64,000 bases of DNA from Thermoplasmata archaeon (GCA_038874435.1 JAVZCK010000001.1:154255-218254), one strand, 5' to 3'; shown: positions 937-43,418, counted from the stretch's first letter. Numbers and translations are program-made. The notes: a model not told the origin generated them from the sequence alone.

Positions 937-1609
937 TATGCGAGTGCTCCATGTGAAAGACCTCGGATTGGTTCATCCAGAAGTGAGTGTTGCAAAGGAC
1001 AGGGAAATTCTGGAGCGGTGCATAGCCACCGGTGAGTGCATTCTCCATTTTTACAGGCGGGAACCACCAGCGGTTTCTGTGGGGCATGGCGAAAAGATTG
1101 AGGAAGCAGTTTATGTGGAGAGGTGCAAGGAGGATGGTGTAATTATCATTCAGCGTGAGAGCGCTGGCAGTGCAATTTACACAGATAGGAACACGCTGGA
1201 ATATGCCATTGCTCTTCCAGAGAAACTTGTGCCTTTTGACAGAAAACAGAGCTATGAGTTTCTGTGCAAACCGATTGTGGAGGCACTAAACACGCTTGGT
1301 TATCCTGTGGTGTTCAAGCCAATAAATGACATTCAGATGGAGGGAAAGAAGGTCTCCGGCAGCGCCCAGAAGAGAAGCAGGGGTGCGGTGCTCCAGCACG
1401 GGACAATTTTGCTTGTTGTGGACCATGAAAAAATGGATAGATACCTGAAGGTGACGCCCAAGCTGGCTGAAAAAGGGCTTGGAAAGCACAGTGAGAGAGT
1501 AAAAGGACTTTTTGAACATCATAAGGTTAATGAGAGCAGAATAGTAGATGAGATTGCGAGAAACTATGAGAGTTTGATAGAGGCAAAAATTGTATTACCC
1601 CATCAGTAG
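929..1609 (+). CDS. lplA: Lipoate-protein ligase A / octanoyltransferase family (BPL/LPL catalytic domain)
   Basis: 226 aa. '[23 protein letters not shown]' is the typical LplA/LipB lysine region. The glycine-cleavage T gene (gcvT) lies in the same window. Confidence 0.6.
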
Positions 1610-2800
1610 TAAGGGCTGGAGTGTAACCTCTATCAAGCATCTGTGAGCCACGAAAAATGCCGTGTTTTTTTCCCAGACATCGAGGCGAAGCATTCCTCCT
1701 TTTACAAGCACTTCCTTCGTGGTCTCGTTGAGGACAATTGCAGAGTCGGGTAGAATAAGTTCATGGCTTACTTCGTAACTGCGTTCCGTGTCGTTCATTT
1801 TAAATTCTACTGTCAGCGTGGTAAAGTAAAAAGGAGAGTAGTAAAGCGTGTAGTTGAGATGAATGGGGTCTGTAGCACGAGTCCCGGGTTTTCTCTGCAG
1901 TAAGCTCCAGCCGTGCAGGTCTTTCCAGTATTCGAAGGGGTCCACCTCGCTCCTGTCTCCCAGAGAGAGCAGATAAGCATGCACACTTGCATTTGCAGTT
2001 TTCTGGTACAATCTTGCTTCATCAAAGGAAATGGCTGTTTCCACCGCTTCCCTTACCAGTGCCTTCGTCACATTTGAAAAGTCGTACCCGAAAACCTCCT
2101 CAAAGGTTCTCTTCAAGAGGTAGAGCGTGATGTTTCCAACAAAGCCAAGGTAATCCTTGGTGCCATTTATGTCCTCCACCATTATTTTTTTCTGTTGATA
2201 TAGAAATGGCAATGTCACAGGAACCCACGAATCCAGATTTATGTCCTTAGTGAGCGAATAACCAGTTCTGTTGTCCACAATGGTTGTTGTGATTTTGCCG
2301 TTGATTCTGAAATAGACATCACCAGTGAAATTCAAAATCACACCGCTTTCGTTCATCATTTCATAATCGTATCTGAAAGCATTTAATTTCCATTGCAGGT
2401 TCTTGTGTGTGGCTGAGTAATCCGGGAAACGCATTGGCTGACCTCCAGCTGCAATACCAGTGAAAGTTCTCATGTAGTTCTTGCTCTCATTCTCCACAAA
2501 CTCAATCGGGTTTTCTTTGGTGTAAACGATTGCATTTGATTTGTTAACTGCGGAGAGCACAGCAGAGACACCCGCTTGCACAAGTAAGTCCTCATGGAGG
2601 AGAAGGAAAGCATTTAAACGGGAGTTCGCATGCTGCAGGTTGATGGCATCATTTCGCTGACTGGCAACCACAGCCATGTAAATGCCACTCACGATTGTGA
2701 GAAAGGCAACTATGACAGCAACAAGCGAAAATGGCACTCTTCCTTTTCTATTTAACTTCACAGTAGAGCATATGGCAGAGAGAAATATAGTTTTTTCCAT
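1595..2800 (-). CDS. Membrane-anchored extracellular glycoprotein, function unknown
   Basis: 401 aa with an N-terminal signal-anchor helix (VPFSLVAVIVAFLTIVSGIYMAVVA) and many N-x-S/T sequons. Divergent from the pilus operon and shares its TATA-containing intergenic region (2801-2860). Confidence 0.5.
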   Translation of the reverse strand: MEKTIFLSAICSTVKLNRKGRVPFSLVAVIVAFLTIVSGIYMAVVASQRNDAINLQHANSRLNAFLLLHEDLLVQAGVSAVLSAVNKSNAIVYTKENPIEFVENESKNYMRTFTGIAAGGQPMRFPDYSATHKNLQWKLNAFRYDYEMMNESGVILNFTGDVYFRINGKITTTIVDNRTGYSLTKDINLDSWVPVTLPFLYQQKKIMVEDINGTKDYLGFVGNITLYLLKRTFEEVFGYDFSNVTKALVREAVETAISFDEARLYQKTANASVHAYLLSLGDRSEVDPFEYWKDLHGWSLLQRKPGTRATDPIHLNYTLYYSPFYFTTLTVEFKMNDTERSYEVSHELILPDSAIVLNETTKEVLVKGGMLRLDVWEKNTAFFVAHRCLIEVTLQPLLLMG

Positions 2801-2807
2801 GAGAAGT

Positions 2808-2816
2808 TATATATAG
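2808..2816. promoter_or_regulatory. TATA-box-like element (ttatatata) in the divergent intergenic region
   Basis: AT-rich TATA motif ~45 nt upstream of the 2861 start. GGTGG RBS at 2846-2850. Confidence 0.35.
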
Positions 2817-2860
2817 GGTGTTCTCAATTAGGGGCTAAGATAACAGTTGCAGGTGGTGAG

Positions 2861-3817
2861 ATGAGAGGAATAACTCTTACAACCCAATACACACGAAGGA
2901 TGAAGGCAAGGAAAAGGTTAAGGATTTCCCAGGCAGGCGTGGCTTCCACCGTTGGCACAATCATGGCACTAATGGTATTCCTCGCTTTTCTGTCTATGTT
3001 CACAACGCAGTATGTCCCAATCTGGATGCAAGATAACGAAGTTCAGTACATGAATCAGGTTGAAAATGATATGTCTCGTTTAAAATCAAATATAGATATT
3101 TTAGTAGTAAATAATGTAGTAGATTTCACTCTCTATTCTCCAATCACGATGGTATCTGGCTATGTGCCTGTGTTTGCGGAGCCCACTCATGGCACTCTGA
3201 CCTTCCAGCCAAATCAGGGAATGATTAATGTCAGATACAACTACTCGTACAACACATCTACAACACCATATACTCCGATCCAATATTCCACGAATCTTAC
3301 TGGCGGATCAATTTCTCTTTATGCACCAAACCGTTACTATGTGGCTCAGACAATTGCTTACGAAAATGGTGCAATCATTGTGAGCCAGGGAGTGGATAAG
3401 CAGGTAATCACAGGTTCTCCACCCGTAACTGCTGAGAAGAAGGGAATCTACAAGAATTTTACAATTGCACTTTATTCACTACTTGGACAACCTGCATCTG
3501 GCTATGCAGAAGGAACAAAGGGTATTTACACATCTCTCGTTTATGTGGAACGCTTCAACCAGAGATTTTATGAGGATTGGAATATCACAGATAATGTGAC
3601 GATTGAATTCCAGACAAAGTATCCTTATGCATGGATGGAATATTACAACAAAACCTTCGCAAAGGCAAATTTCACTGCAGGCACTGATTATGCAATAACT
3701 GGCTTATCTGCCCTTTCTCAGGGTTATTACAAGTTTACCATCACAATTTATGGTTTAACCGATTTTACAATTGTCAAGGCCACAGTGCGAGCTTCAATTG
3801 AAGGTTCAGGGGGTTAA
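2861..3817 (+). CDS. Putative type IV pilin-like / archaellin-like glycoprotein (class III signal peptide-like N-terminus)
   Basis: N-terminus 'RRMKARKRLRISQAGVASTVGTIMALMVFLAFLSMF' has a basic stretch followed by a hydrophobic helix, as in archaeal prepilins. Sequon-rich. First gene of the ATPase / TadC-like operon. Confidence 0.45.
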   Translation: MRGITLTTQYTRRMKARKRLRISQAGVASTVGTIMALMVFLAFLSMFTTQYVPIWMQDNEVQYMNQVENDMSRLKSNIDILVVNNVVDFTLYSPITMVSGYVPVFAEPTHGTLTFQPNQGMINVRYNYSYNTSTTPYTPIQYSTNLTGGSISLYAPNRYYVAQTIAYENGAIIVSQGVDKQVITGSPPVTAEKKGIYKNFTIALYSLLGQPASGYAEGTKGIYTSLVYVERFNQRFYEDWNITDNVTIEFQTKYPYAWMEYYNKTFAKANFTAGTDYAITGLSALSQGYYKFTITIYGLTDFTIVKATVRASIEGSGG

Positions 3818-5445
3818 TGAAAATGGCTGAATCTACAAAGAAAAAGTTTGGGATAAAAATAAAGGTTCCAAGACGAGAAATTATTAAGAGTGCAACTGAG
3901 CTTGGCGGTGAGGGCGGCTCCATAACAGAAATTCCAAAAATTACAGATCCGAATATCCAGGAGCTTGCATTCGTCCCACAGAACCCCCCATACAGTTATT
4001 CACGTATCACCTACAACAACACCTCCAAGGAGTACCTTTATGAGGCAATCGAACCCAAGCTAACAATTAGGGAGAAGGAGGTCCTAGACCTTGTAAAAGA
4101 CACATTGATGCGAACTGTTGGCTACGACTGGGAAACCATGACTGCGAAGGATAAGGAGGAGTATCTGAAGGGCTGTGTCAACACCTATCTTCGAACAAGA
4201 ATGATTAATCTCTCACCAATTTCAGTTGAACGCATCATCTACTACATTATCCGTGATTTTGTTGGTTTTGGACCAATAGATGTGCTCATGCGAGATGAGA
4301 TGGTAGAGGATATCTCTTGTGATGGCGTGGGTATTCCAATTTACCTCTATCACCAGAAATTTGAGTCAATAAAGACAAACATTAAGTTTGAAACAGATGA
4401 GGAGTTGAACTCATTTATTGTGGCACTCGGACAGCGATGTGGCAAACAGATCTCAGTTTCAAATCCAATCCTAGATGGAACTACAACAGAGGGACACAGA
4501 GTACAGGCAACATATTCACGAGAGGTAACCACCAGGGGAGGCAGCTTCACGATTAGACGGTTCAAAGAAAAGCCGTTTACACCTGTTGACCTGATCACTA
4601 CTAAGACCGCATCTCCGGAAATGGTTGCTTATTTTTGGATTGCAGTAGAACATGGAGAATCAATAATTGTTTGTGGTGGCCCTGCAAGTGGTAAAACATC
4701 TACCCTGAACGCCATTACTCTGTTCATACCTCCCGCAGCAAAAATTATTACAATGGAAGACACAAGAGAGATAAAGCTACCACATGAGAACTGGATACCG
4801 GGTGCTACAAGAAGTGGCACTGGTGAAAGAGGTGCAGACGGGAAGGCAGCGGGCGAAATTGATATGTTTGATCTTGTGAGAGCTGCATTGAGACAAAGGC
4901 CCAACTACATCATTGTGGGTGAGGTGAGAGGCAAAGAAACCTATACAATGTTCCAGGCAATGGCTACCGGTCACACAACCTATTCTACGATGCATGCCGA
5001 CTCTGTGAAGTCAATGGTGAACAGATTAGAAAACCCACCAATTTCCACGCCGAGAATTCTTCTCTCAGCCCTTAACAATGTGATTATTCAGACCCATGCG
5101 AGAGTGGGAATGAGCATGGTAAGGCGAATCAAGCAAGTGATTGAGATTGTTGGCTTTGAACCAGAGACGAACGAGTTAATCACAAACACAGTGTATGAGT
5201 GGGACCAGCCCACGGACTCTTTCGTGTTTAAGGGTCACAGTTTCCTCTTTGACAAAATCATGGAAATGAAAAATCTCACACATGAGGAAATGATGGAAGA
5301 ATTCAACAGAAGAGTTGAAGTGGTGAATTACATGGTGCGCAAGAACATAACTGACTACAGGAAGCTTGCAAACATAATTGTGGCATATTTCAAGGACCCA
5401 AAAGATACAATTGAGAAGATAAGAGGTGATAAATTTGTCTCCTGA
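3817..5445 (+). CDS. Type IV pilus/archaellum-family secretion ATPase (FlaI/TadA/VirB11 superfamily), copy 1
   Basis: 542 aa. Walker A 'GGPASGKTSTLNA'. Conserved 'EDISCDG...FTIRRF' and 'IIVGEVRG' blocks. Start overlaps the upstream stop (taATGa). Confidence 0.8.
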   Translation: MKMAESTKKKFGIKIKVPRREIIKSATELGGEGGSITEIPKITDPNIQELAFVPQNPPYSYSRITYNNTSKEYLYEAIEPKLTIREKEVLDLVKDTLMRTVGYDWETMTAKDKEEYLKGCVNTYLRTRMINLSPISVERIIYYIIRDFVGFGPIDVLMRDEMVEDISCDGVGIPIYLYHQKFESIKTNIKFETDEELNSFIVALGQRCGKQISVSNPILDGTTTEGHRVQATYSREVTTRGGSFTIRRFKEKPFTPVDLITTKTASPEMVAYFWIAVEHGESIIVCGGPASGKTSTLNAITLFIPPAAKIITMEDTREIKLPHENWIPGATRSGTGERGADGKAAGEIDMFDLVRAALRQRPNYIIVGEVRGKETYTMFQAMATGHTTYSTMHADSVKSMVNRLENPPISTPRILLSALNNVIIQTHARVGMSMVRRIKQVIEIVGFEPETNELITNTVYEWDQPTDSFVFKGHSFLFDKIMEMKNLTHEEMMEEFNRRVEVVNYMVRKNITDYRKLANIIVAYFKDPKDTIEKIRGDKFVS

Positions 5446-6448
5446 GGTCACAAGCAGGTTTGATGCCCTTGACACTAAGAAATCATATCTGAAGACGCAG
5501 AAGGCAGGGGCCCAGCGTGAATTGCTTTCAAGCCATGTGGTTAAATTACCCAAGGGCGTGCTGCCTCAGTATGCACAACTGACTCCTCTTCAGCAAACTG
5601 CATGGAAGATGTTTGGACCAAAAGCAGAAGTGAAGGCAAGGATGAATCAGAAACTAGAGGACGACATGCTTAAAGCCCACATGAGAATTAGACCAGAGGA
5701 ATACATTGCATATGCCTGGTTTATCACAATGATTGCAGGAATTGCGCTCTCCGTAACTGGTGTGGTATTGGGAGTAATTTTAGCATTGATTGGCAATCTC
5801 ATAGCAGGGGTTCTTATTGCAGTTGTCCTCCCAGTGGTTGGAACAATTCTCACTTATTTCATAATGCTGTCTCTCCCTTCATCAAGAGCCAAGGCAAGGG
5901 CAAGGGACATAGATAAAAAAATCTCGCCTGCAATGAGCTTCGTTTCTGCAATGGCATCTGCAGATGTGAACATTGATGTAATTTTTAAGGAGTTAGCCAG
6001 GCAACCAATCTACGGTGAAATAAAGGAGGAGGCGGGTTGGATAACTAGGGACACTGAGTTGTTGGGGGTAGACATTCTTACTGCAATTAAGAAAGGGGCG
6101 ACCAGAACGCCATCTGCCAAATTCCAGGATTTCTTGCAAGGTGTGGTGACAACAACAACTTCAGGTGGTCAGTTGAAACCCTATTTCCTCACGAAGGCAG
6201 AGCAGTACGAGAAAGAGGCAAAATTGGAGATGTCCAAGCGCCTTGAAACTCTTGGTATGCTTGCCGAGACCTTTGTGACAGTTGTGGTTGCATTTCCGCT
6301 TTTCCTTGTGGTGATCATGGCAATTATGGCCCTTGTTGGTGGGCAGGGGAGGTTCATACTTAACATTCTGTACGCAATAGTGTTTCTGATGATTCCGATG
6401 TCTCAGTTTGGCTTCATCTTTGTGATATGGAACATGAGTCAGGAGTGA
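5426..6448 (+). CDS. TadB/TadC-like (T2SSF-domain) polytopic membrane protein, single-domain half 1
   Basis: 340 aa with multiple TM helices and one GspF/T2SSF-like domain. Overlaps the neighbouring genes. Confidence 0.7.
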   Translation: MINLSPEVTSRFDALDTKKSYLKTQKAGAQRELLSSHVVKLPKGVLPQYAQLTPLQQTAWKMFGPKAEVKARMNQKLEDDMLKAHMRIRPEEYIAYAWFITMIAGIALSVTGVVLGVILALIGNLIAGVLIAVVLPVVGTILTYFIMLSLPSSRAKARARDIDKKISPAMSFVSAMASADVNIDVIFKELARQPIYGEIKEEAGWITRDTELLGVDILTAIKKGATRTPSAKFQDFLQGVVTTTTSGGQLKPYFLTKAEQYEKEAKLEMSKRLETLGMLAETFVTVVVAFPLFLVVIMAIMALVGGQGRFILNILYAIVFLMIPMSQFGFIFVIWNMSQE

Positions 6449-7434
6449 TGAAAATGGCAGAGAATATTTTTGGAGGCAAGGAAGAGAAAATTCCTACAGC
6501 GAAGAAGATCCTGATAATCTCAGGGTGCATCGCTGCAGTTTTCTTTATTATAGGAGTTTTGAATGTGATTCCTGTGGATAAGAACAATCCTGATAAGACA
6601 ATAATTATGACACCATTTAAACAGTACGACTATAATTTTGATGGCCAGATGGAACCAGAAAATGCACTTAATAGGGCACTGGACTTCTTTGTACTCGGCA
6701 TTGCAATTTTGATTGGTCCTTATGGGTTCTATAAGAGTATGGAGTTAAGTAGAGTTCGTGCAATTGAAGAACGACTTCCTGAGTTTCTGAGAGATGTGGC
6801 CGAGGCAGGAAGGTTCGGTATGACGCTTGCGGAAGCAATTGTGGTTGCCTCCACTGGAAGATATGGAAAGCTTACACCTGAAATAAGAAAAATGGCAGCA
6901 CAGATTGAATGGGGTGTGCCTGCTGCAGAAGCATTGCGTCTCTTCTCCCAGCGTGTGAATACCCCAGCAGTACGAAGATGTGTAGCGATAATTACAAAGG
7001 CAAACGACGCAGGAGGTAATGTTGCAGATGTGCTTTCAATGGTTGCCCATGACACGAAAGAGGTTCAACTCATGGAGGCCCAGAAGCGAATTTCAATGAC
7101 CACGTACCTTACTGTTATCTACATAGCGTTCTTTGTGTTCATCGTCACAATAATGATTCTGAATGCTACATTCTTGCCTCAGATGGCGAAGGCAGGTAAG
7201 AGTGTAGAGGAAGGGGCACAGCAGCTCGGCGGTGGCGGTGGTGCTAGTGCCACAAAAATAGAATACAAACTCATCCCAGAGATTATGTTTGTGATGTTTG
7301 TTTCTGTGATAATCCATGCAATAGGCGATGGAATTCTCGCAGGTGTCATAATCACTGGTAAGATTGCAACTGGACTCCAACATAGTTTCATAATGGTAGT
7401 TATCGGTTGGCTTCTGATGAGGTTTATGGTGTGA
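6427..7434 (+). CDS. TadB/TadC-like (T2SSF-domain) membrane protein, half 2
   Basis: 335 aa with an N-terminal TM helix, a cytoplasmic T2SSF-like domain (LPEFLRDVAEAGRFGMTLAEAI...) and C-terminal TM helices. Confidence 0.7.
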   Translation: MEHESGVMKMAENIFGGKEEKIPTAKKILIISGCIAAVFFIIGVLNVIPVDKNNPDKTIIMTPFKQYDYNFDGQMEPENALNRALDFFVLGIAILIGPYGFYKSMELSRVRAIEERLPEFLRDVAEAGRFGMTLAEAIVVASTGRYGKLTPEIRKMAAQIEWGVPAAEALRLFSQRVNTPAVRRCVAIITKANDAGGNVADVLSMVAHDTKEVQLMEAQKRISMTTYLTVIYIAFFVFIVTIMILNATFLPQMAKAGKSVEEGAQQLGGGGGASATKIEYKLIPEIMFVMFVSVIIHAIGDGILAGVIITGKIATGLQHSFIMVVIGWLLMRFMV

Positions 7435-7443
7435 GGTGATGAA

Positions 7444-9135
7444 ATGGCTACAACTGAAAAAGAAACGAAATCCCTTCCAATAGGGCTTCGAATTGCAGGC
7501 ATTTTCTTAAAATCTAAACCAAGGAAAATCATGATGCCAAAGACCGTCCAGTCCTCTCTTACAGGACGTGGCATTGAGGGAGTAACAGTAATTCCTCCGA
7601 TTGCTGAGAAACACATAAATGAAATAGAGGTACAGCCTATACAGCCTGGCTATTCATATGTTAGAATAAAATATGATACAATTTCTAATGAATATCTATA
7701 TGAAGTCATTGAACCTGTACTCACTACAGATGAAGAATTTATTCTTGATTTTCTGAAGGGGAAGCTCATTGATGCATTTGAGATGATTGAGTTGGAGGAC
7801 CCAAAAGAGAGAGAAAAATATCTCAGAGAGCTGGCGATAAAGGTTCTCAGAGAAAATGAGATTCACCTCAACCCAGTTAGCAAAGAGAAGATTTTGTATT
7901 ATGTCGTTCGTGATTTTCTTGGTTATGGGCTCATAGGAGTTCCTATGATCGACCCACAGGTGGAGGATATTTCCTGCGATGGTGTGAAAATCCCAATATA
8001 CATTTTCCACAGAAAGTATGGGTCCATTAAATCCAATCTGCGATTCCAGTCGCACAAGGAATTGGATGGTTTCGTTGTCTGGCTCGTGCAGCGATGCGGA
8101 AAGCACATTTCAGTCGCGAGCCCGATGGTAGATGCTACAGTGCCAGATGGTTCAAGATTGCAGGCAACATTGGGTGAGCATGTCACAAAGAGGGGTTCTT
8201 CTTTCACAATTAGGCGTTTCAGGGAGAATCCATTTACTCCGGTGGACTTGCTCAAGTTCAAAACAATGTCAACTGAGATGATGGCATATATCTGGATTGC
8301 GATAGAGTCAGGGCAGTCCATGATGGTTTGTGGTGGCACTGCAAGTGGAAAGACCACAACGCTCAACGCTGTCTTGTTGTTTATCCCACCGCAAATGAAA
8401 ATAGTGAGCATTGAGGACACGAGAGAACTCAACCTCCCCCATGAAAACTGGATTCCCTCGCTTACAAGGTCTGGCTTTGGTGGCAAAAACCTGATTACAG
8501 GAAAAGCAGCAGGTGAAATTGACATGTTCGATCTACTCACTGCTGCCCTTCGTCAAAGACCGCAATACCTGATGGTTGGTGAGGTAAGAGGTGCAGAGGC
8601 CTACATTGTGTTCCAGGCGATGGCTACGGGTAAGACATGCTATACCACATTCCATGCAGAATCAGTGGCTGCAATGGTGCACCGTATGGAAAACCCACCA
8701 ATCAACTTACCAAGGGCTCTTGTTGCTGCCCTTAACATTGTGCTGTTGCAAGGACAAGTTAAAGTTGGAACAAAGATGACCAGACGTGTCAAAAACCTTA
8801 CAGAAATCGTGGGTATCGACCCAGAAACTAACGAATTAATTACGAACTCGGTTTATTCATGGAATCCTGCAGATGACACCTTCAGTTACAGTGGTCACAG
8901 TTATGTTTATGAAAAGGTGGCTGCGTCTAAGAACTGGAGCATGAAGGAAATGGAAAGAGAAGTAAAGAGAAGATGTGACATTCTTGAATACATGAAGCTT
9001 ATAGAATCCCAACGGCCCAAAGACAATCCGTTCACCTACAAGGATGTGGCAAGATTGGTTTCATGGTATTATAAGGAGCCAGATGCTGTGATGGAAACAG
9101 TGCGTCAGGCCCTTGCTACCCAACAGCAAAAATAA
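7444..9135 (+). CDS. Type IV pilus/archaellum-family secretion ATPase, copy 2 (paralogue of 3817..5445)
   Basis: 563 aa. Walker A 'GGTASGKTTTLNA'. Collinear and highly similar to copy 1 across the whole length. Confidence 0.8.
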   Translation: MATTEKETKSLPIGLRIAGIFLKSKPRKIMMPKTVQSSLTGRGIEGVTVIPPIAEKHINEIEVQPIQPGYSYVRIKYDTISNEYLYEVIEPVLTTDEEFILDFLKGKLIDAFEMIELEDPKEREKYLRELAIKVLRENEIHLNPVSKEKILYYVVRDFLGYGLIGVPMIDPQVEDISCDGVKIPIYIFHRKYGSIKSNLRFQSHKELDGFVVWLVQRCGKHISVASPMVDATVPDGSRLQATLGEHVTKRGSSFTIRRFRENPFTPVDLLKFKTMSTEMMAYIWIAIESGQSMMVCGGTASGKTTTLNAVLLFIPPQMKIVSIEDTRELNLPHENWIPSLTRSGFGGKNLITGKAAGEIDMFDLLTAALRQRPQYLMVGEVRGAEAYIVFQAMATGKTCYTTFHAESVAAMVHRMENPPINLPRALVAALNIVLLQGQVKVGTKMTRRVKNLTEIVGIDPETNELITNSVYSWNPADDTFSYSGHSYVYEKVAASKNWSMKEMEREVKRRCDILEYMKLIESQRPKDNPFTYKDVARLVSWYYKEPDAVMETVRQALATQQQK

Positions 9136-9987
9136 ATGTCTTACATCACGGCTTTTGATCCGTGGCAAAACAAGGCATGTACCTGTCCTCCCAAATATTC
9201 TTTTAATCCCTACACGGGCTGTGCCCATGCTTGCGTTTATTGCTACATTACCAGTTACATTCCTGATGCCTTCCATTTGAGAAAGAAAAGAGATGTACTG
9301 AGAACAGTGGCAAGAGAGTGCGGAAAACTGGAGCAAAACAGGTACATCAGCATGAGCAACAGCTCAGACCCGTATCCTCCAGTTGAAAAGGATGAGGGAA
9401 TAACGAGAAATGTGCTAAAAATTTTCAGGGAACATGGATTTCAGGTGTTGATAATCACAAAATCAGATATCGTGACAAGGGATGTAGATATTCTCGAAAC
9501 TATGAATGCGGTAGTTTCCATCACAATCACAACAATTGATGATGAAATTGCTAAACTGCTGGAGCCAAAAGCACCTCTGCCATCAAGGAGAATTAAAGCG
9601 CTTGAGAAGTTAAGCGAGAAAGTGCCATGTGTAGTTAGGATAGACCCTTTAATTCCAGGTATTAACGAAAATTTTGAGGAAGTGGTTGAAGTAGTTGCTC
9701 CATATGCCAAACATTGTGTGTTTTCCACATTTAAAGTGCGGAAGGATGCGCTTGCAAGAATTGTATCTGTATTTCCAGAAGTGAAGGAAAAACTACAGAA
9801 TCTTTATTTCAAAAACCCTGTGATTGTTGGCAATTCATACTATCTCCCAGAAGGGATTAGAGCACAGGTGCTTCAGAGAGCAAAGGAGGTCTGTAAAAGG
9901 CACAACCTTGCGTTTTCTTCCTGTAGAGAAATGCTGCCGCAGTTGAATGATGCTGGGTGTGACGGAAGCGGCTGGTTGCAGAGATGA
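9136..9987 (+). CDS. Radical SAM protein, SplB / DNA-repair-photolyase-like family (COG1533-like)
   Basis: 'YTGCAHACVYCY' gives the CxxxCxxC radical SAM cluster motif. 283 aa. Confidence 0.6.
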   Translation: MSYITAFDPWQNKACTCPPKYSFNPYTGCAHACVYCYITSYIPDAFHLRKKRDVLRTVARECGKLEQNRYISMSNSSDPYPPVEKDEGITRNVLKIFREHGFQVLIITKSDIVTRDVDILETMNAVVSITITTIDDEIAKLLEPKAPLPSRRIKALEKLSEKVPCVVRIDPLIPGINENFEEVVEVVAPYAKHCVFSTFKVRKDALARIVSVFPEVKEKLQNLYFKNPVIVGNSYYLPEGIRAQVLQRAKEVCKRHNLAFSSCREMLPQLNDAGCDGSGWLQR

Positions 9988-9989: not shown

Positions 9990-10577
9990 CTACTCGATTA
10001 TCTCTGCATTCCTTGTAAGATATGCCAAATCTTGCTGCGAAAACATTTCTTTCATTACCGGTAGAATAAGAATTGAATTTGTGCGGAGAAGCTGGTCATA
10101 GAGGGTTTCTATCATCCGCATCACCGCAGGAAACTTGTTGTTAAGAATGAGAGTATCTAGGCAGTCTATAAGAACCACACAACCTGGCTTTTTTTCGATC
10201 ATTTCTGCAAGGTATCTTGATAGAATCCCAATGCTTGTAGGCGGGAGATTGTTTTTACCTGCTACACTTGTAAGCCAGATAAAAATTTCTGTTTGAACTC
10301 CATACTCTTCCATTATGCGCTCAGCACTGTTCCTTGATACGCAGATTGCAGTTTTGCCAGCATTCAGAAGGTCCTTGAGCAGCATGTAGCTTACTTTTGG
10401 CTTTGTCTCAAATACCACATACATCCTACCTTGCTTCAATTCTTTCCCATCTGTCTTCTTAGCAATTTTTTCTTTCAATTGTCTGAGAAAGTCCTCCTCG
10501 GACACATGTGTTCCACCCGTGATGTATTTTCTCTCTTCAGCCATCAGGTCACCCTTTGGTATGCTGCAAATCTGCAA
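9990..10577 (-). CDS. Stand-alone DUF835-like protein (RecA/KaiC-like fold without Walker A)
   Basis: 195 aa. Blocks 'ICVSRNS...IFIWLTS...GCVVLIDCLDTLILNNKF' align with residues ~285-420 of the giant protein ('LCVSTTF...VLWISES...GVLVLDCIETLILENGF'). Confidence 0.55.
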   Translation of the reverse strand: MQICSIPKGDLMAEERKYITGGTHVSEEDFLRQLKEKIAKKTDGKELKQGRMYVVFETKPKVSYMLLKDLLNAGKTAICVSRNSAERIMEEYGVQTEIFIWLTSVAGKNNLPPTSIGILSRYLAEMIEKKPGCVVLIDCLDTLILNNKFPAVMRMIETLYDQLLRTNSILILPVMKEMFSQQDLAYLTRNAEIIE

Positions 10578-16291: not shown

Positions 16292-19200
16292 ATGTATACT
16301 GGGGGCAAGAAAATGGACGCAAGAAAGATTGAGATAGAGGGCATAAATAAGCTAGTAGAAGAGGGAATACCTGCGGATTATATGCTGCTGTTGCAGACCG
16401 ATGAGGGGCTGGAAACAGACCTGCTTGTGAGACAGTATATAAAGGAAGCACTGACTAAAGGAGAGATTTGTATTGCGGTGTTATCCGAGAGTTCACCAGA
16501 TGACTTTAAAAAGTTGATGAGTGCAATAGGAATAAATGCTGAGACCCATGAAAAGAATGGCACGCTCTACATTGTGGACTGGTATTCCTTCAGAAATGAA
16601 AGAATAATAGGGGTAGAGGAGAAAGGTGCAATTTACAAATGCTCAAAGAGTTTAACAAATGTGGAAATTGCAATTTCAAAAATTCTGAAGAAAATTGAAG
16701 GCAAAAAATTCAGAGTTTATTCAGACATTCTTTCAAATGCTATAAAAGTTTTTGGCTTCGAAACCGCATTCAAGTTTTCGCAAGGGCTGACAGCGAGAAT
16801 CAAGAAATACAATGGCGGAGCTCTGTTCAAAATTTCCAAGACGATGCATGAGCAGAAGGTAATTTCCGCGTTTCACTCGCATTTCAACGGTGTACTGGAC
16901 ATTGAGCATCGAAGGGAAGAGGAGAGGGTGGTTGCAAGAATAGGAATAATTTCTTTAGATAATTTATTCTATGAAACCTCCTACAAGAAATTGGGTGTGA
17001 GCAAAACAAAGGGCATTATAATTATGGATGAGGAAGAGATGAAGGCAAAGCCAAAACCCGTTGTGAAGAAAGTTGTGAAAGAAGAGGTGGCAGAAGAGGA
17101 GACAGCAGAGGAGGAGGGTGGAGAGAAAATTGAAGAAATGAAAGGCTCAAGTGTTCTCATTTATGAGGAGGACCCCAAACACATCTACAAACTCTATCGC
17201 CAATTTCTTTCGGAAGGAATGCCAGGGCTCTGTGTTAGCACCACATTCCCAGCTAAACTCAAGAAACTCCATAAATTTGATTCAGAGGTGCTCTGGATTT
17301 CAGAATCCTCAGAGAAAGGTGCAGTGAAGCCAGGTAGAATGGAATTTGAGTTAATGCGTGAAGTGGGCAACTTCTTAAAAAACAACAAGGAAGGTGTGCT
17401 AGTTCTTGACTGTATTGAAACCCTCATCCTTGAAAATGGCTTTGATAAGGTTGTTAAGTTTCTGAAGAAGATTGGTGACATGGCCGCGGTGAACGGCAAC
17501 ACGGTTCTGGCTGTGATAAATGACAAGAGCATGGAGCAGGAGAAGCTGTATGTGCTTTCGAAAAGCTTTGATATGAAAATAACTCGTGAAGAACTGGAGA
17601 AGGAAGCAAAGAAGCCAAAGCCAGTTGAGGTAAAACCAGAAGTCGTGCCTGGGGCAAAGGAAGAGGTTGTGTCTGCAGAAGAGGAGAAACCAGTTGTTGC
17701 ACCTGCGGTGGAAAAAGAAGAGGTGAAGGTAGAAAAAGAGCCAGAGGCAGTGAAGGAAGAAAAGGCATTGGTTGGTAGAGAAGCATTTACAAATGGGTTG
17801 AAGAAGAGTGTGACTGCGAGAGAGGCCTACACCAATGGACTTGGAAAGCGGAAGCCAGGGTATGTAAACGGATTGAAGAAACCTGGCATGAGGCAAAGAC
17901 CAGCAAAAGTTAGCCGGGTAAAACAGGTTGTTGTGGGACTTGTGGTTGTGGTAATTGCCATCTCAGTTTTTGCATTCTGGCTTTTCACGATTCCTTCAGA
18001 AAAAATTAAGGTGGATGGAAACATAGATGATTGGCAGGGGCTTGCGGTTTATAAAGACAGTGAGGACTTTGCAAACCCAGACATAAAAATCACAGAATAC
18101 AGCATTTACTACAGCAATGAAAAATGCTATTTCTATGTGAAAGTTGCTGGCACTGCGTTTAATGGTGCAAACAGTGGCTATGATACCCTTGTTCTGTTTA
18201 TCGACAAGGACAGGAATCCAAACACTGGCTACAGGGTGGAGAACATAGGAGCAGATGCAAAGATAGAGATTAGCGGATTCAATGGCAACATTCATACTTC
18301 ATCAGTGGCAGTGTTTAAAGAAGGGAGTACATCTATAAAGCCAGAATTGAATTACAGTGCCTGGGAAAGTGTTGGCGGTGTGGTCGTGGAGAAAAGCGGG
18401 AACATTGTTGAAGGAAGTGCGAAGATTACAGGAATGACAGAGCCAATAGGCCTTGTTGCGATGCGACACTATGAGGGCAGTGTTTATGCAGAGAAACGGG
18501 GCATGGCGCTGGTAAGCAAAACTGAAGGAAGTTTAGTGGTTTACCAGAATTTTATTGGCAATGATGTGGTATATGCAGATGCTGATGTGCTCGAGCTAAG
18601 ATTGATTGCAAAGGGTAAGGATGTGCATGTGGAAAGCATAAGCGTGGCAAATGCGAATGTGAGTTTACCAAAGAAGGACATTGCAGTGAATGAAGAAGTG
18701 GTGGTGAGTTGCAAAGCAAAGAGCTTGACAAATGGTAAGGCATTTGAGTTTGGTGTACAGAGTGTGGACACGAATGTACCCTACAGAATTGTGGGCAACG
18801 GTGGCAAAGCATACTTTGGTTCCTTACCTTCAGGAATTGTGATTGATGGTGCGTTTGGTGATTGGCAGGGTGTGGAGAAGGGGAGTGATGTAAGTGGAGA
18901 TGCAAGCCAGAACATTGATTTGCGAGAGTATGCCAGTGCAATTGCAAGCAATGCATACTTCTACATGGCAGTGGATGGCACAATGCTTGCTGGCTGCGAA
19001 ATCCCTGTGCTTGGTGCCAGACCCCCAGTGCAGCCAGGACCACCAACGCCAGTGGTGATAAAAGAAAATCTGGGCACGGATGTGGCAAGGGTTTACATTG
19101 ATTTGATGAATTCTACAATCAACACCTTCAATCCAGCAATGATTTCTCATGGCTATCTGATTGAGTTACAAGGGAGAAATGGACAGGTAGTAAGTGCAAG

Positions 19201-22200
19201 GGCCTGGAAGTGGGAGAATGGTGTTAAGGCAGAGGAAATCCAGAATCCAAACATTGCTCATGGTTTGAGCGATGGTAAAATTGAGTTCAGTGTTGCAGGC
19301 AGTGCTCTTGCTGGCCTCAATAACGACACGAAATTCTACTTTGAGATGACAAACTGGCTTGGCGAAAAAGATGCAAGTGAGTTTGCTTACAGAGCAGGAA
19401 AAATCCAGCGTGAAAACACTATGGCAAATGGCGGGACAAGAGGCACACCACATTCACCGATACATATAATCGGTGATGTTGGGTTTCAAACAGAAGCACA
19501 GTTGAATGGGTGGCCTGGTGATGGAACCCAAGGAAATCCATACATTATAGATGGATATGAAATAGATGGAGGACAAGCACCAGCATTAGGTATGTATGGC
19601 ATCTGGATAGAGAACACGAATGTGTATTTTGTAATAAGAAACTGCACAGTTTACAATGCGACAAATTCTGGCAGTGCACCTTACGGTGCAGGAATTGCAC
19701 TAAACAATGTGAGGAATGGAACAATAGAAAACAACAAGTGCAATAACTCAATATATGGGATTTATCTATATGGGAATTCACGATTCAACATAATAACAAA
19801 TAACAATGCCTCTAGCAACAGCTATGGTGCACATTTGAACTACACAAACAACACCATTTTAACATTCAACACCATTACTAATAATGGAAACTATGGTCTT
19901 TACGTAGCTTCTTATTCCACAAACAACACCATAGCCTACAATAATGTCTCCAGCAACTCTAACTACGGCATTTACATCTACTCCTATTCCACAAACAACA
20001 CCATAGCCTACAATAATGTCTCCAGCAACTCTAACCATGGCATTTACATCTACTCCTATTCAATCAATAACACCATAACAAATAACAATGTATCCAACAA
20101 CTCCAAGGAGGGAATCCGTGTTGAGTCTGGGTGTTCCTACACAAAAATCAGCGGTAACAATGTATCTAGAAATATGGGACACGGAATTTTTGTCTATACG
20201 ATAACCTCATACTGCTCTATAGAGAGAAATACCGTTTTCAATAATAGCTGGACTGGAATATATGTTAATGGGAACGCTGGTGGCTACGGATATATCAATA
20301 TCTCTCGCAATGTTGTCTATTCCAATGGATATGGTGGTTATGACTATCACGGTATCTTTCTATACCAGTGTGTGGCTTGTAATGTGACTGAAAATAAAAT
20401 TTATGCAAATAATAACACCGGAATTTGCATATACTATAATTCTATGGGCCACAACATCACAAGAAATAATGTCTCAGATAATAAAGGAATAGGGATATAC
20501 TTACGTGGTTCACAAACAAATAACAATAAAATCATGTATAATTTATTTTATAACAACTCAGCGGAGGGCGTACTTATTTCAATTAATGCGTATAATAATG
20601 TAATCCACCATAATAGTTTCTGGAAAAACAATGGTTCTGCAACAAGAGGTGTAAATGGAAACCCACAGGCGCGAGATATACAAGATATATCTTTACAAAA
20701 TTACTGGTACGATGCTTCCACATACGAGGGAAATTACTGGAGCAATTGGGATGGAAGTGGATGGGGAACATCTAGTGCATACCCTGTAAATGGAACATGG
20801 AGATACGACATGTATCCAATCTCGATGCCAGTACTCTATCCACTCAACATAACAAGCAACGAGGACTTTGCATTCTATGCTATGCTTTACGGCTGGCCTG
20901 GAAATGGCACGAAACTAAATCCATACATTATTGATGGATACTACATAAACGGTAATGGGACTTTGAACTGCACATACATAGCAAATACAGATGTGTATTT
21001 TGTAATCCGGAACTGCTTGCTGAAGAACGCGAGTTTGAGCGATAGAATTGGTATTTATCTGACAGATGTAAAAAACGGAACTTTATTTAATAATACTATC
21101 AGCAATTGTTGGCGAGGAATCTATTTGTATGATGTCACAGACACGACTATAACTGAGAACAAAATTCCAGGCACATCTGGCAATGTGGGAGTTCGATTGG
21201 AAAATAGTTATGGAAATGTAATTCGGAGGACCCATATCTATGCTGTTTCATCATCAGGAGTTCTTCTATCCAACAGTAGTTTCAATTACCTGTCCGAGAA
21301 CAAAGTGAACAACACAAATTATGGGTTATCCTTATTCTCTTCCTCAAATAACAATATAATAACAAACAACAATCTATCTTATAATTTCTATGGGATTCAG
21401 GTCTCAGCCTCAAGCTATAACAACATCACCTATAACTGGATTTGCAACAGCACAAACTATGGAGTGTATATTGCATCTGGCTCATCAGGGAACTCTATTC
21501 ATCATAACAACTTTATCGGCAACAACGGTGCAGGCAAGGGTGTGAACGGCAACTGCCAGGCGTATGATGATGTTGGCGGGAACTACTGGAATAAAAGTAT
21601 CGGACAGGAAGGCAACTACTGGAGTAACTGGGATGGTACTGGTTGGGGCACTTCAAGTGCCTATCCGATAAACGGCGGTTCTGGTGGTGCGGATTGGTAT
21701 CCATTATCCAACAGAACATTTGCTCCGCTGCATATTGTTGGTAACGAGGAGTTTGTTTTCTATGCAAAACTCTATGGCTGGCCAGGTGCTGGAATTTCGG
21801 CAAATCCATACATCATAGATAGATACTATCTCAATGGTAATGCGACAGGCATTCCTTCATCTTACAACATCTGGATTGAGAACACGAATCTTTACTTTAG
21901 GATTTCTAACTCAACAATAAGAAACGCCACAGACAATATAGCGTCTCCGTACGGTGCTGGAATAGCGTTTATCTCCGTTACAAATGGAGTTGTGGATAAC
22001 AATACAGTTACAAACAATGTTGATGGTATTTACATTAAAATGTCAAATGGACTGAATATAAAAAATAACAATATTTCATTTAATTCGGAAACAGGAATAG
22101 ATATCTATGAGTGCAGTTACCTCACGATCACTGGCAATACAATGTACTATGACGGTATCCATTTAGATGGTGGGCAGGTTAGCCACTGGAATACCCACAT

Positions 22201-31827: not shown

Positions 31828-32265
31828 ATGATGGAGACACGCACACAGTTCATTGTACTGATAGTCCTACTGGTGGTTATCACTTGCGGGTTTGGGGGTT
31901 ACTTCCTTTACAAGGACTGGAGTACACCGAAAGAGGTGACCAAGCACTACAATGTGAGCAATGCAACACTCAATCCAAACTCTGATATAGTGCTTGAGTT
32001 TTATTCGAAAGCAGGTGGAAACATCACTGGAACCATAAATGCAAGTAAGGAAGTGGAGGCATTCATATTAGACACTTTTAACTATCTGGAATACAGAAAA
32101 AACAGGAATCTTTCAGCCATCGCTCTAGTGTTTCTCACAAATGGCACGAGGATAAACATAACATGGGATGTTCCCTCAGAAAATTTCTGGTATCTTCTCA
32201 TTTACAACAACAAAACTGAAAATGTGGTAGTTGAATATGATGTCTGGTGTAGATTTCTCAGTTAA
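31828..32265 (+). CDS. Small membrane-anchored hypothetical protein with a sequon-rich ectodomain
   Basis: 145 aa with N-terminal TM 'FIVLIVLLVVITCGFGGYFLY'. Lies 21 nt downstream of the 1358-aa gene and is probably co-transcribed. Confidence 0.4.
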   Translation: MMETRTQFIVLIVLLVVITCGFGGYFLYKDWSTPKEVTKHYNVSNATLNPNSDIVLEFYSKAGGNITGTINASKEVEAFILDTFNYLEYRKNRNLSAIALVFLTNGTRINITWDVPSENFWYLLIYNNKTENVVVEYDVWCRFLS

Positions 32266-33109
32266 GAAGGAAGAGATAAATTCCAATTCGGAGCGGATTC
32301 CAACCGCAGTTGCTGACTTTGATGCAATAATTGGAGGAGGAGTACCTAGGGGCAGCTTGGTCATTCTCAAGAGCGAAATGGGTGCTGGGCATATTGAGTT
32401 TGTTATAACCTCCATGGCAAAACTCATTCTTGCTAAAGAAGACAGGGAGTATTCTGATTTTTTTCTGAAAAAATCTAAAGGTTTCCTCCCTGAAAAATTT
32501 TTGTTTATAACAATTTCAAGGGCAAAGGAGGACATACTGAGAGAAGTCAAGGGCTCGTTTCCTCAGGATTATTATGAGGCAATTTCTAAATCTGTGATTT
32601 TCAAGGATTTTTCTGCTGAGTATTTCAGAGCCACGGTAGTGCCTCCCGCCTGGGCAGGCGAGGAAACAAGTATATTCAGGAAGGACAAGAGTTCAGGGAA
32701 CATCCTAGGCGAATTAATAGAATTTCTGGATGCTAATGCCTCGCAATCCCTGGTGGTTTTAGATGCGTTAACGGACCTAGTGATTACCAAGAAAATTGAG
32801 TTTTACGACCTTGTGACGCTGCTGAAAGGCCTCCAGAGAGTTGCAAAAAAGTGGCAGGGTGTGATTTACCTTTTGCTCACTGCCAACATTCTTGAGCCAC
32901 AGAAAGAGCTGCTTTTGATGGACAGTGTGGATGGTATAATTACATTTGAATGGAGCAAGAGCACCAAAACATCAAGGAGGCAGCGTTTCATGTATGTGGA
33001 AAAATTCATGCCATTGTTGCTTCATCTGGATAACGAGAGAATCACTAAATTTGCAATTGAGATTAATTCCCAGGAAGGACTGGTGGTATCAAGCTATGTG
33101 AGGGTGTGA
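32231..33109 (+). CDS. KaiC/RecA-like protein with Walker A replaced (pseudo-ATPase)
   Basis: 'DFDAIIGGGVPRGSLVILKSEMGAGHIEFV': the P-loop GxxGxGKT is absent. Start may be a few codons downstream. Confidence 0.55.
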   Translation: MNMMSGVDFSVKKEEINSNSERIPTAVADFDAIIGGGVPRGSLVILKSEMGAGHIEFVITSMAKLILAKEDREYSDFFLKKSKGFLPEKFLFITISRAKEDILREVKGSFPQDYYEAISKSVIFKDFSAEYFRATVVPPAWAGEETSIFRKDKSSGNILGELIEFLDANASQSLVVLDALTDLVITKKIEFYDLVTLLKGLQRVAKKWQGVIYLLLTANILEPQKELLLMDSVDGIITFEWSKSTKTSRRQRFMYVEKFMPLLLHLDNERITKFAIEINSQEGLVVSSYVRV

Positions 33110-33810: not shown

Positions 33811-33820
33811 GAATTAGGTA

Positions 33821-43407: not shown

Positions 43408-43418
43408 TATATATAGCA
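43408..43418 (+). promoter_or_regulatory. TATA-like element (acatatatata) upstream of the subtilase gene
   Basis: ~35 nt upstream of ATG 43452. GGAGG at 43441-43445. Confidence 0.4.

What the first reader, a model, noticed from the sequence alone, without database searches (positions are those of the whole stretch)
2861..9135. Type IV pilus-like operon with two paralogous secretion ATPases and two single-domain TadB/TadC-like membrane proteins
Archaeal type IV pilus and archaellum loci normally encode one FlaI-like ATPase and one two-domain FlaJ/TadC-like platform protein. This locus has ATPase, half-platform, half-platform, ATPase in one apparently translationally coupled operon, which is a bacterial-Tad-like split plus an ATPase duplication. 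The two ATPases are full-length paralogues with Walker A intact in both. That suggests distinct roles, for example extension and retraction or a heterohexamer. No prepilin peptidase and no obvious minor pilin lie within the window.
Basis: partly seen in the sequence, partly recalled or inferred. Interest (0 to 1): 0.6.

Follow-up and report, generated by a model that had tools for sequence, protein, structure and literature searches.

The report
Thermoplasmata pilus operon with two ATPases
This is a real type IV pilus assembly operon with two active motor ATPases and a platform protein split into two genes. The layout is already published for related archaea (Aciduliprofundum, Cuniculiplasma) and is standard across the class Thermoplasmata, so this is a new member of a known kind, and the role of the second motor is still unknown.

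Summary
Window 2861-9135 is one tightly packed plus-strand operon:
- a pilin-like protein (318 aa)
- ATPase A1 (542 aa)
- the N-half platform protein
- the C-half platform protein
- ATPase A2 (563 aa)

A1 and A2 are 52% identical over their full length. Walker A, Asp box, Walker B and His box are intact in both.

- Split TadC-like platforms are common in euryarchaeal pilus loci.
- The same cassette was tabulated for Aciduliprofundum in 2016.
- It was described in 2025 as the CdiP pilus machinery of Cuniculiplasma divulgatum (two ATPases, split platform, solved pilus structure, no twitching seen).

My addition is that the cassette is not an outlier.
- All 80 related Thermoplasmata species loci I fetched carry it as far as their contigs reach.
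- 60 of them, plus this window, hold complete A1/A2 pairs, and every pair has intact catalytic motifs and equal constraint on both copies.
- Diagnostic residues link A1 to the first and A2 to the second Cuniculiplasma-type ATPase, so the duplication is old and both copies are kept.

How the two motors divide the work is unresolved. The options are alternating hexamers, an extension/retraction pair, or a mixed hexamer. Verdict: new member of a known kind, moderate interest.

The parts
2801..2860 (+). Intergenic region between divergent genes, with an archaeal TATA-like box (TTATATATA, about 2806-2815) and GGTGGTGAG just before the ATG. Putative operon promoter and ribosome-binding site.
   Evidence: Read directly from the sequence. 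Function is inferred, not tested.
2861..3817 (+). Pilin-like protein, 318 aa. Equivalent by position to the arCOG02911 'predicted pilin' of Aciduliprofundum. Predicted prepilin cleavage QAG|VASTVGT.
   Evidence: Weak Pfam DUF7289 hit, below the cut-off. Conserved directly upstream of A1 in 71 related loci. 53 of 60 family members match the FlaFind motif, and the mature N-terminus VASTVGTIMAL is nearly invariant. AF2 model pLDDT 86: helix 6-83 plus a beta-rich head. No solved homologue.
3817..5445 (+). ATPase A1, 542 aa. PilB3/afGspE-like secretion ATPase. Orthologous in position and in diagnostic residues to the first ATPase of the Cuniculiplasma-type operon (the CdiPE1 position).
   Evidence: T2SSE and PilB3_C. 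Best solved relative is A. fulgidus GspE 2oap, 416 bits. Motifs are intact in 61 of 61 orthologues. Monophyletic in 100 of 100 bootstraps. Diagnostic sites link it to Cuniculiplasma-type E1.
5426..6448 (+). Platform half TB, 340 aa from the GTG start; a TTG at 5435 is an alternative start. It corresponds to the N-terminal half of FlaJ/TadC and to CdiPFa.
   Evidence: One T2SSF domain. Aligns to FlaJ positions 4-244 of 555. 34% identical to the CdiPFa part of the published sequence, E 4e-37.
6427..7434 (+). Platform half TC, 335 aa. An ATG at 6448, preceded by GGAGTG, is the more likely start. It corresponds to the C-terminal half of FlaJ/TadC and to CdiPFb.
   Evidence: One T2SSF domain. Aligns to FlaJ positions 219-451 of 465. 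32% identical to the CdiPFb part, E 3.5e-35. Junction sequence.
7444..9135 (+). ATPase A2, 563 aa. Paralogue of A1 (52% identity). Orthologous in position and in diagnostic residues to the second Cuniculiplasma-type ATPase (the CdiPE2 position).
   Evidence: T2SSE. 2oap at 405 bits. Motifs intact in 61 of 61. Monophyletic in 100 of 100 bootstraps. Closer than A1 to both outgroups. Diagnostic sites.
9136..9987 (+). Radical SAM protein (PA0069/DUF1848-like). It starts at the base after the A2 stop codon, so it is probably co-transcribed here. It is not part of the conserved cassette.
   Evidence: Pfam and NCBIfam. Junction. No homologue in any of the 84 related loci.
1595..2800 (-). Divergently transcribed 401-aa protein with an N-terminal membrane anchor. 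No family match. Not conserved beside the cassette elsewhere, so probably not a component.
   Evidence: No Pfam or NCBIfam hit. Hydrophobic N-terminus. No homologue in related loci.

Best explanation
This is the Thermoplasmata version of the euryarchaeal 'Clade 2' (PilB3/afGspE-like) type IV pilus assembly machine. It is the same kind of operon as the CdiP pilus machinery of Cuniculiplasma divulgatum and the two-ATPase locus of Aciduliprofundum.

The two half-platform proteins (TB = N-half, TC = C-half) together form the membrane platform. The operon-encoded 318-aa pilin-like protein is a minor or priming pilin. The fibre itself is built from small major pilins, which are cut by a prepilin peptidase. 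Both the major pilins and the peptidase are encoded elsewhere in the genome.

Both ATPases are active, non-redundant motors of this one machine. They arose from one old duplication and have been kept together ever since.

My preferred mechanism, which is inferred and not shown: A1 and A2 form separate hexamers that take turns on the same TB/TC platform and do different jobs. I give this about 40%. The jobs would be either start-up on the minor pilin versus processive elongation, or assembly versus disassembly.

Shown: gene identities, the split platform, intact catalytic motifs, conservation of the cassette, and the age of the duplication.
Inferred: that a pilus is made in this organism, and how the two ATPases divide the work.
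For: - Domain and family matches for all five genes.
- A1 and A2 are 52% identical over their full length.
- The best solved relative of both is A. fulgidus GspE; FlaI is second and CpaF third.
- The cassette PIL-A1-TB-TC-A2 is present in all 80 Thermoplasmata species loci as far as each contig extends, and there are 60 complete A1/A2 pairs. It is also present in metagenome loci L001-L004.
- Walker A Lys/Thr, Asp box Glu-Asp, Walker B Gly-Glu and the His box His are invariant in 61 of 61 copies of both paralogues.
- Conservation profiles along the two proteins are almost the same. Mean within-group identity is 67% for A1 and 69% for A2.
- 29 positions are fixed differently in A1 and A2.
- There is no gene conversion: same-genome identity is 48.7% against 48.4% between genomes.
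- TB and TC are collinear with the published CdiPFa/CdiPFb sequence, E 4e-37 and 3.5e-35.
- Cuniculiplasma-type loci have the same ATPase-F-F-ATPase order.
- In those loci the first ATPase carries the A1 state at 13 of 29 diagnostic sites and the A2 state at 5-6. The second carries the A2 state at 12-14 and the A1 state at 3-4.
- Literature: PMC4858521 tabulates the identical Aciduliprofundum locus. PMC12448462 links such an operon to a real, structurally solved adhesive pilus.
- Tight gene junctions and the absence of an internal terminator indicate co-expression.
Against: - No major pilin and no prepilin peptidase lie in the window, so pilus production in this organism is not shown.
- My NJ tree did not recover A1+E1 or A2+E2 clades (3 of 100 and 0 of 100 bootstraps). 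Orthology with the Cuniculiplasma pair therefore rests on gene order and diagnostic residues. Long-branch attraction is my assumption for the conflict.
- Nothing in the sequences separates 'two hexamers taking turns' from 'one mixed hexamer'. The strongest co-variation in the operon is between A1 and A2 themselves (partial r 0.72). That fits a mixed hexamer at least as well, although it may only reflect similar substitution behaviour in two paralogues.
- Neither ATPase has the shortened PilT-like form.
- No twitching was seen in C. divulgatum.
Confidence: 0.7

Rival explanations
1. A dedicated extension/retraction pair. One paralogue polymerises the pilus and the other depolymerises it. This would be an archaeal, independently evolved counterpart of bacterial PilB/PilT. 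It is a specific sub-case of 'two hexamers taking turns'.
For: - Both copies are active-looking, always co-encoded and fixed differently at 29 sites. These sites lie in the N2-like region (176-240) and the C-terminal domain (354-480).
- Archaea have no PilT, yet some archaeal pili retract (PMC11178785).
- A 2026 preprint proposes that split-platform Tad/Epd motors reverse by flipping one ATPase. Two ATPases, each locked in one orientation, would be a natural variant of that.
Against: - No twitching was seen in C. divulgatum, which has this machinery.
- Both paralogues keep the full N-terminal region with equal conservation, unlike PilT.
- Both score far below the PilT family cut-off: 50 and 41 bits against 319.
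- Tad and Aap pili retract with a single ATPase, so a second one is not needed for retraction.
Confidence: 0.2
2. An obligate mixed hexamer. A1 and A2 co-assemble into one ring (for example alternating A1/A2) that docks on the TB/TC platform. The split platform and the split motor would then mirror each other.
For: - The genes are co-transcribed and tightly coupled, and they flank the platform genes.
- Neither paralogue is ever lost.
- A1 and A2 distances co-vary more strongly than any other pair in the operon: r 0.97, partial r 0.72.
- From memory, not checked here: the solved afGspE hexamer shows alternating subunit conformations.
Against:
- The co-variation can be explained by two paralogues sharing the same substitution dynamics.
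- Gene conversion and excess same-genome similarity are essentially absent.
Confidence: 0.2
3. Two interchangeable or specialised motors for different pilin sets. Each ATPase would assemble a different filament, or secrete a different substrate such as the neighbouring giant surface proteins, through the same platform.
For: - Makarova et al. argue that ATPase/TadC modules can serve different pilin sets in trans.
- Giant surface proteins (CARDB/Zn-ribbon type) lie beside the cassette in about 30 loci and in Aciduliprofundum. Large beta-helix surface proteins lie 7 kb downstream in this window.
Against: - A single platform and a single operon give no means of independent regulation.
- The neighbouring surface-protein genes are not conserved across the loci, whereas both ATPases always are.
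Confidence: 0.1
4. Not a pilus system at all: an archaellum, a VirB11-type conjugation or DNA-uptake system, or a bacterial Tad locus acquired by transfer.
For: The FlaI, TadA and VirB11 models all give significant but sub-threshold hits.
Against: - FlaI model: 420 and 414 bits against a cut-off of 550.
- TadA: 139 and 142 bits against 373.
- VirB11: 128 and 119 bits against 250.
- There are no archaellins, no FlaH/F/G and no T4SS components nearby.
- All close relatives are Thermoplasmata.
Confidence: 0.03

Closest known systems
CdiP pilus machinery operon of Cuniculiplasma divulgatum (CdiPE1, CdiPFa, CdiPFb, CdiPE2). ISME J 2025, PMC12448462.
   Same: - Two secretion ATPases flank a platform split into an N-half and a C-half gene, in the same order.
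- TB and TC are collinear homologues of CdiPFa/CdiPFb.
- Diagnostic residues pair A1 with the first ATPase and A2 with the second.
- Major pilins are encoded elsewhere in both.
   Different: - Sequences are distant: about 32-34% identity for the platform halves and 35-43% for the ATPases.
- The Cuniculiplasma-type loci I fetched lack the upstream DUF7289 pilin-like gene.
- Their two ATPases have diverged much further from each other, 31-33% against 49% here.
- I compared relatives of C. divulgatum (88% identity to the published CdiPFa text), not the type strain itself.
Aciduliprofundum boonei / sp. MAR08-339 Clade 2 T4P locus. Makarova, Koonin and Albers 2016, PMC4858521, Supplementary Table S4.
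   Same: The five-gene order is identical: arCOG02911 predicted pilin, FlaI-like ATPase, TadC (332 aa), TadC (290 aa), ATPase. [quoted passage not shown]
   Different: Aciduliprofundum has a giant Zn-ribbon protein convergent just downstream, whereas this window has a radical SAM gene and a DUF835 gene there. I did not compare the sequences directly.
Haloferax volcanii PilB3-PilC3 / Archaeoglobus fulgidus GspE (PDB 2oap) type euryarchaeal pilus modules.
   Same: Same ATPase family (PilB3_C domain; 2oap is the best solved hit for both A1 and A2). Pilins are supplied in trans.
   Different: These modules have one ATPase. In A. fulgidus the TadC is a single two-domain protein.
Epd pili of Methanococcus and bacterial Tad pili (TadA/CpaF, TadB, TadC).
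   Same: The platform is split into two single-T2SSF proteins. CpaF is the third-best solved relative.
   Different: - One ATPase only.
- The TadA model scores well below its cut-off.
- No TadZ, secretin or EppA-type peptidase lies nearby.
- A 2026 preprint assigns these systems a single inverting ATPase.
Bacterial type IVa pilus PilB/PilT motor pair.
   Same: Two paralogous hexameric ATPases serve one platform.
   Different: - PilT is a shortened, separately clustered family.
- Here both copies are full length, sit in one clade and score 41-50 bits against a PilT cut-off of 319.
- Opposed function is not shown.

Membership tests
CdiP-type / Thermoplasmata two-ATPase type IV pilus machinery | Operon order ATPase - N-half T2SSF - C-half T2SSF - ATPase | tested here: met
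   Same order in the Cuniculiplasma-type loci L085-L087 and in the Aciduliprofundum table.
CdiP-type / Thermoplasmata two-ATPase type IV pilus machinery | Platform halves homologous and collinear with CdiPFa and CdiPFb | tested here: met
   BLASTP of the published (retyped) CdiPFa,b sequence. TB 34% identity, E 4e-37, query residues 43-302. TC 32% identity, E 3.5e-35, query residues 360-605.
CdiP-type / Thermoplasmata two-ATPase type IV pilus machinery | Each ATPase orthologous to the ATPase in the same position (A1=E1, A2=E2) | tested here: inconclusive
   Diagnostic sites support it: E1 has 13 A1-states against 5-6 A2-states, and E2 has 12-14 A2-states against 3-4 A1-states. The NJ tree does not recover the clades.
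CdiP-type / Thermoplasmata two-ATPase type IV pilus machinery | Assembles a pilus from a CdiPB-like major pilin | not testable with these tools
   No CdiPB-like gene in the window (tblastn best E 1.1). In C. divulgatum the pilins lie about 500 kb from the operon. The rest of this genome is not available.
Euryarchaeal Clade 2 T4P (Makarova 2016) | FlaI/VirB11-superfamily ATPase of the PilB3/afGspE type | tested here: met
   T2SSE plus PilB3_C. 2oap is the top solved hit for both copies.
Euryarchaeal Clade 2 T4P (Makarova 2016) | Signature arCOG02911-type pilin (250-550 aa, class III signal peptide, beta-rich) in the locus | tested here: inconclusive
   For:
- Same position as arCOG02911 in Aciduliprofundum.
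- The family carries the FlaFind motif in 53 of 60 members.
- The model is a helix plus a beta-rich head.

Against or open:
- No arCOG profile was available to test.
- The Pfam DUF7289 hit is below its cut-off (18 bits against 27).
- The window copy itself has Ala instead of a charged residue at position -2.
Archaellum (FlaI/ArlI + FlaJ/ArlJ) | ATPase reaches the FlaI equivalog cut-off, and archaellins and FlaH/F/G lie in the locus | tested here: not met
   420 and 414 bits against a cut-off of 550. No such genes among the neighbours.
Bacterial Tad pilus | TadA-family ATPase above its cut-off, with TadZ, secretin and Flp | tested here: not met
   TIGR03819 scores 139 and 142 bits against 373. 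No accessory genes present.
PilT-type retraction ATPase | Membership of the PilT/PilU family (TIGR01420) and the short form lacking the N-terminal domain | tested here: not met
   50 and 41 bits against 319. Both proteins are full length, with N-terminal regions conserved to the same degree.
VirB11 (type IV secretion / DNA transfer) | VirB11 equivalog score and T4SS neighbours | tested here: not met
   TIGR02788 scores 128 and 119 bits against 250. No T4SS genes nearby.

The most novel reading that the evidence does not exclude
The two co-inherited ATPases are a true two-motor solution evolved inside the Archaea. They would be either the first dedicated archaeal pilus extension/retraction pair or an obligate A1/A2 mixed hexamer matched to the split platform. 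Because the cassette is universal in Thermoplasmata, this would define a fourth motor class of the type IV filament superfamily, alongside the three classes proposed in the 2026 Tad preprint.
Probability: 0.3. Interest if true: 0.75.

Novelty: new member of a known kind. Interest (0 to 1): 0.35.

Why it matters
The 2025 Cuniculiplasma paper calls the two-ATPase pilus operon 'unique' and an 'intriguing outlier'. The comparison made here shows instead that it is the standard pilus machinery of a whole archaeal class. That class includes the gut and sediment Methanomassiliicoccales and Aciduliprofundum.

Both motors have been kept intact since an old duplication. This turns 'why a second ATPase?' from a curiosity of one species into a general question about archaeal pilus motors. 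It also supplies 61 matched pairs and 29 paralogue-specific residues as material for mutagenesis or modelling.

The locus in this window is itself an ordinary member of that group.

Tried and rejected
- FlaFind-style regex and hydrophobic N-terminus scans of all six frames found no short PilA-like pilin. They picked up only the 318-aa and 401-aa proteins beside the operon.
- tblastn with the published CdiPB pilin found nothing in the window.
- Foldseek of the pilin-like model against the PDB gave no significant match.
- The NJ phylogeny with only two named outgroups (afGspE, FlaI) puts A1+A2 together, excluding afGspE, in 96-97 of 100 bootstraps. It places the fast-evolving Cuniculiplasma-type pair outside that clade. 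I treat this as long-branch attraction, because gene order and diagnostic sites say otherwise. The tree therefore cannot date the duplication relative to Archaeoglobales. Makarova's tree splits the two Aciduliprofundum copies among Archaeoglobales branches with weak support.
- The mirror-tree analysis cannot tell a physical A1-A2 interaction from shared paralogue dynamics.
- The gene-conversion test was negative.
- The 401-aa divergent gene and the radical SAM gene were considered as components. I rejected them because they are absent from all related loci.
- Archaellum, Tad, VirB11 and PilT memberships were rejected on the curated score cut-offs.

Full report
**What is there.** Window 2861-9135 holds five plus-strand genes:
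- 2861-3817, 318 aa
- 3817-5445, 542 aa, 'A1'
- 5426-6448, 340 aa, 'TB'
- 6427-7434, 335 aa, 'TC'
- 7444-9135, 563 aa, 'A2'

A1 and A2 match Pfam T2SSE (3e-32 and 1.2e-33) and the PilB3-like C-terminal domain. TB and TC each carry one T2SSF domain. Against NCBIfam, TB aligns with the N-terminal half of the FlaJ/UpsF models and TC with the C-terminal half. They are therefore the two halves of a normally two-domain platform, not duplicates of each other (they share only 22% identity over 108 residues).

A1 and A2 are 52% identical over 531 residues. Their junctions are tight: TAATG between the first gene and A1, overlaps at A1/TB and TB/TC, and a 9-nt spacer with GGTGA before A2. No plus-strand terminator-like site lies inside the operon. 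A TATA-like box and a Shine-Dalgarno-like motif precede the first gene.

**Catalytic integrity and family.** Both proteins carry Walker A (GGxASGKT), the Asp box (EDTRE), Walker B (VGEVRG) and the His box (T.HA). Both score almost identically against every ATPase family:

| Model | A1 bits | A2 bits | Cut-off |
|---|---|---|---|
| FlaI | 420 | 414 | 550 |
| TadA | 139 | 142 | 373 |
| VirB11 | 128 | 119 | 250 |
| PilT | 50 | 41 | 319 |

Neither copy is a stray VirB11, an archaellum motor or a PilT. The best solved relative of both is Archaeoglobus fulgidus GspE (2oap; 416 and 405 bits). Sulfolobus FlaI and Caulobacter CpaF follow.

**The missed pilin.**
- The first gene of the interval is not an ATPase. 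Its N-terminus (…RISQAG|VASTVGTIMALMVFL…) resembles a class III signal peptide.
- The family has a nearly invariant mature N-terminus, and 53 of 60 members match the FlaFind motif with the cut after Gly. The window copy has Ala rather than a charged residue at -2.
- An AlphaFold2 model built on 60 homologues (pLDDT 86) shows a helix (residues 6-83) followed by a beta-rich head, which is the pilin 'lollipop'.
- It has only a sub-threshold DUF7289 hit and no solved structural relative.
- It occupies the position of the arCOG02911 'predicted pilin' in Aciduliprofundum.
- I found no short major pilin and no prepilin peptidase in the 64 kb.

**Source.** The 318-aa protein is 100% identical to a hypothetical protein of an NCBI 'Thermoplasmata archaeon' MAG. 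All close homologues of A1 come from Thermoplasmata or Methanomassiliicoccales.

**Conservation.**
- Three metagenomic relatives (L001, L002/L003, L004) show the same five-gene cassette.
- A scan of one genome per GTDB species returned 80 loci, all Thermoplasmata, out of 588 or more matches. Every one carries pilin-A1-TB-TC-A2 as far as its contig reaches. Sixty hold complete A1/A2 pairs.
- In all 61 pairs the catalytic residues of both paralogues are invariant.
- A1 and A2 are each monophyletic (100 of 100 bootstraps).
- Mean identity is 67% within A1, 69% within A2 and 49% between them.
- Their conservation profiles along the sequence are almost superimposable, so neither copy has a decaying domain.
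- Twenty-nine positions are fixed differently in the two paralogues. They cluster at 176-240 and 354-480.
- Same-genome A1/A2 identity (48.7%) barely exceeds between-genome identity (48.4%), so gene conversion is not at work.
- Both copies have therefore been kept as distinct, constrained, active-looking proteins.

**Already known.**
- Makarova, Koonin and Albers (2016, PMC4858521) state that many euryarchaeal Clade 2 loci have two tadC genes. [quoted passage not shown]
- Their Supplementary Table S4 lists, for both Aciduliprofundum genomes, arCOG02911 pilin - ATPase - TadC (332 aa) - TadC (290 aa) - ATPase. By contrast, A. fulgidus has one ATPase and one two-domain TadC.
- An ISME J paper of 2025 (PMC12448462) describes the CdiP pilus of Cuniculiplasma divulgatum. 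Its machinery operon has two ATPases (CdiPE1, CdiPE2) and a platform split into CdiPFa and CdiPFb. The pilins lie about 500 kb away, and the filament was solved by cryoEM.
- Those authors considered an extension/retraction role, saw no twitching, and called the second ATPase 'enigmatic'.

**Link to CdiP.**
- I retyped the CdiPFa,b sequence from that paper's supplement. TB matches the CdiPFa part (34% identity, E 4e-37) and TC the CdiPFb part (32%, E 3.5e-35), collinearly.
- Using CdiPFa as a query, I fetched Cuniculiplasma-like and Caldiplasma loci. They show ATPase - T2SSF - T2SSF - ATPase without the upstream pilin-like gene.
- Their two ATPases are only 31-33% identical to each other.
- My NJ tree places them outside the A1+A2 clade. 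I attribute this to long branches.
- At the 29 diagnostic sites the first ATPase has the A1 state 13 times against 5-6 for the A2 state. The second has the A2 state 12-14 times against 3-4. The outgroups are mixed. Signature motifs agree as well.
- On this evidence I take A1 as the CdiPE1 counterpart and A2 as the CdiPE2 counterpart. The duplication then predates the split of these lineages.

**Mechanism.**
- Shown: a co-expressed cassette of one pilin-like protein, a two-piece platform and two constrained, catalytically intact ATPases that are never separated.
- Inferred: it builds an adhesive type IV pilus from pilins encoded elsewhere, as in C. divulgatum.
- How the two ATPases share the work cannot be read from sequence.
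- I lean (about 40%) towards separate hexamers taking turns on one platform with different tasks. Bacterial multi-ATPase pilus systems, as far as I know, work by exchanging homohexamers.
- A dedicated extension/retraction pair is a sub-case of that (about 20%).
- A mixed hexamer is the main alternative (about 20%). It is weakly favoured by the fact that A1 and A2 co-vary more than any other pair in the operon (partial r 0.72 against at most 0.39). Shared paralogue dynamics could also produce this.
- A 2026 preprint proposes that split-platform Tad/Epd motors reverse by flipping a single ATPase. A system with a split platform and two ATPases does not fit any of its three motor classes.

**Verdict.** The feature is real and correctly located, and it is ordinary for its lineage. 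It is a new member of a published kind. The added value here is that the 'unique' Cuniculiplasma arrangement is class-wide and anciently conserved.

Noticed in passing
window 16292-27598 (+): A 3768-aa protein with an unusual build. It has an N-terminal KaiC-like domain plus DUF835 (cytoplasmic), a membrane span near residue 530, about 3000 residues of NosD/right-handed beta-helix repeats, and a C-terminal membrane anchor. This reads as an ATPase-like signalling module fused to a giant surface protein.
   Followed up: partly
window 27730-31806 (+): A second, 1358-aa beta-helix (NosD/Beta_helix) surface protein. It is a paralogue of the repeats in the giant protein and also has a C-terminal anchor.
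   Followed up: partly
window 32231-34543: Three adjacent KaiC-like ATPase genes: 32231-33109 (+, weak match), 33106-33810 (+) and 33821-34543 (-). Makarova et al. 2016 list KaiC-family ATPases as possible pilus regulators. In about 23 related loci a KaiC-like/DUF7504 gene sits about 4 kb upstream of the cassette.
   Followed up: partly
window 9990-10577 (-); L004 2311-3721: A stand-alone DUF835 protein converges on the end of the operon. In the 93%-identical relative L004, a DUF835 gene and an Arf/Ras-like small GTPase gene lie just upstream of the cassette. The recurring DUF835 neighbourhood is unexplained.
   Followed up: no
window 9136-9987 (+): A radical SAM gene (PA0069/DUF1848-like) starts at the base right after the A2 stop codon, as if it were the sixth gene of the operon. 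It is absent from all 84 related loci.
   Followed up: partly
L001 14554-19788; L002 14608-19746; about 30 of 84 loci: A giant CARDB/Zn-ribbon surface protein converges on the A2 end of the cassette, as in Aciduliprofundum (arCOG01917). A conserved cytoplasmic protein of about 145 aa lies divergently upstream in about 24 loci. Neither is adjacent in this window.
   Followed up: partly
window 43344-49061 (+) and 36781-39288 (-): A 1905-aa subtilase-like surface protein with many Ig-like repeats and a C-terminal anchor, and an 835-aa PKD-domain surface protein. The window is unusually rich in large cell-surface proteins.
   Followed up: no
window 58328-61018 (-): An 896-aa protein with a C-terminal von Willebrand A domain. 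vWA proteins are another class that Makarova et al. link to archaeal pilus loci. Here it lies about 50 kb from the operon.
   Followed up: no
L085 6427-8004; L087 6400-8022: In Cuniculiplasma-type loci the first ATPase has drifted in its motifs: Walker A is GVPGVGKT and the Asp box is EETRE instead of EDTRE. The second ATPase keeps the canonical forms. The two motors may be less equal in that lineage than here.
   Followed up: partly
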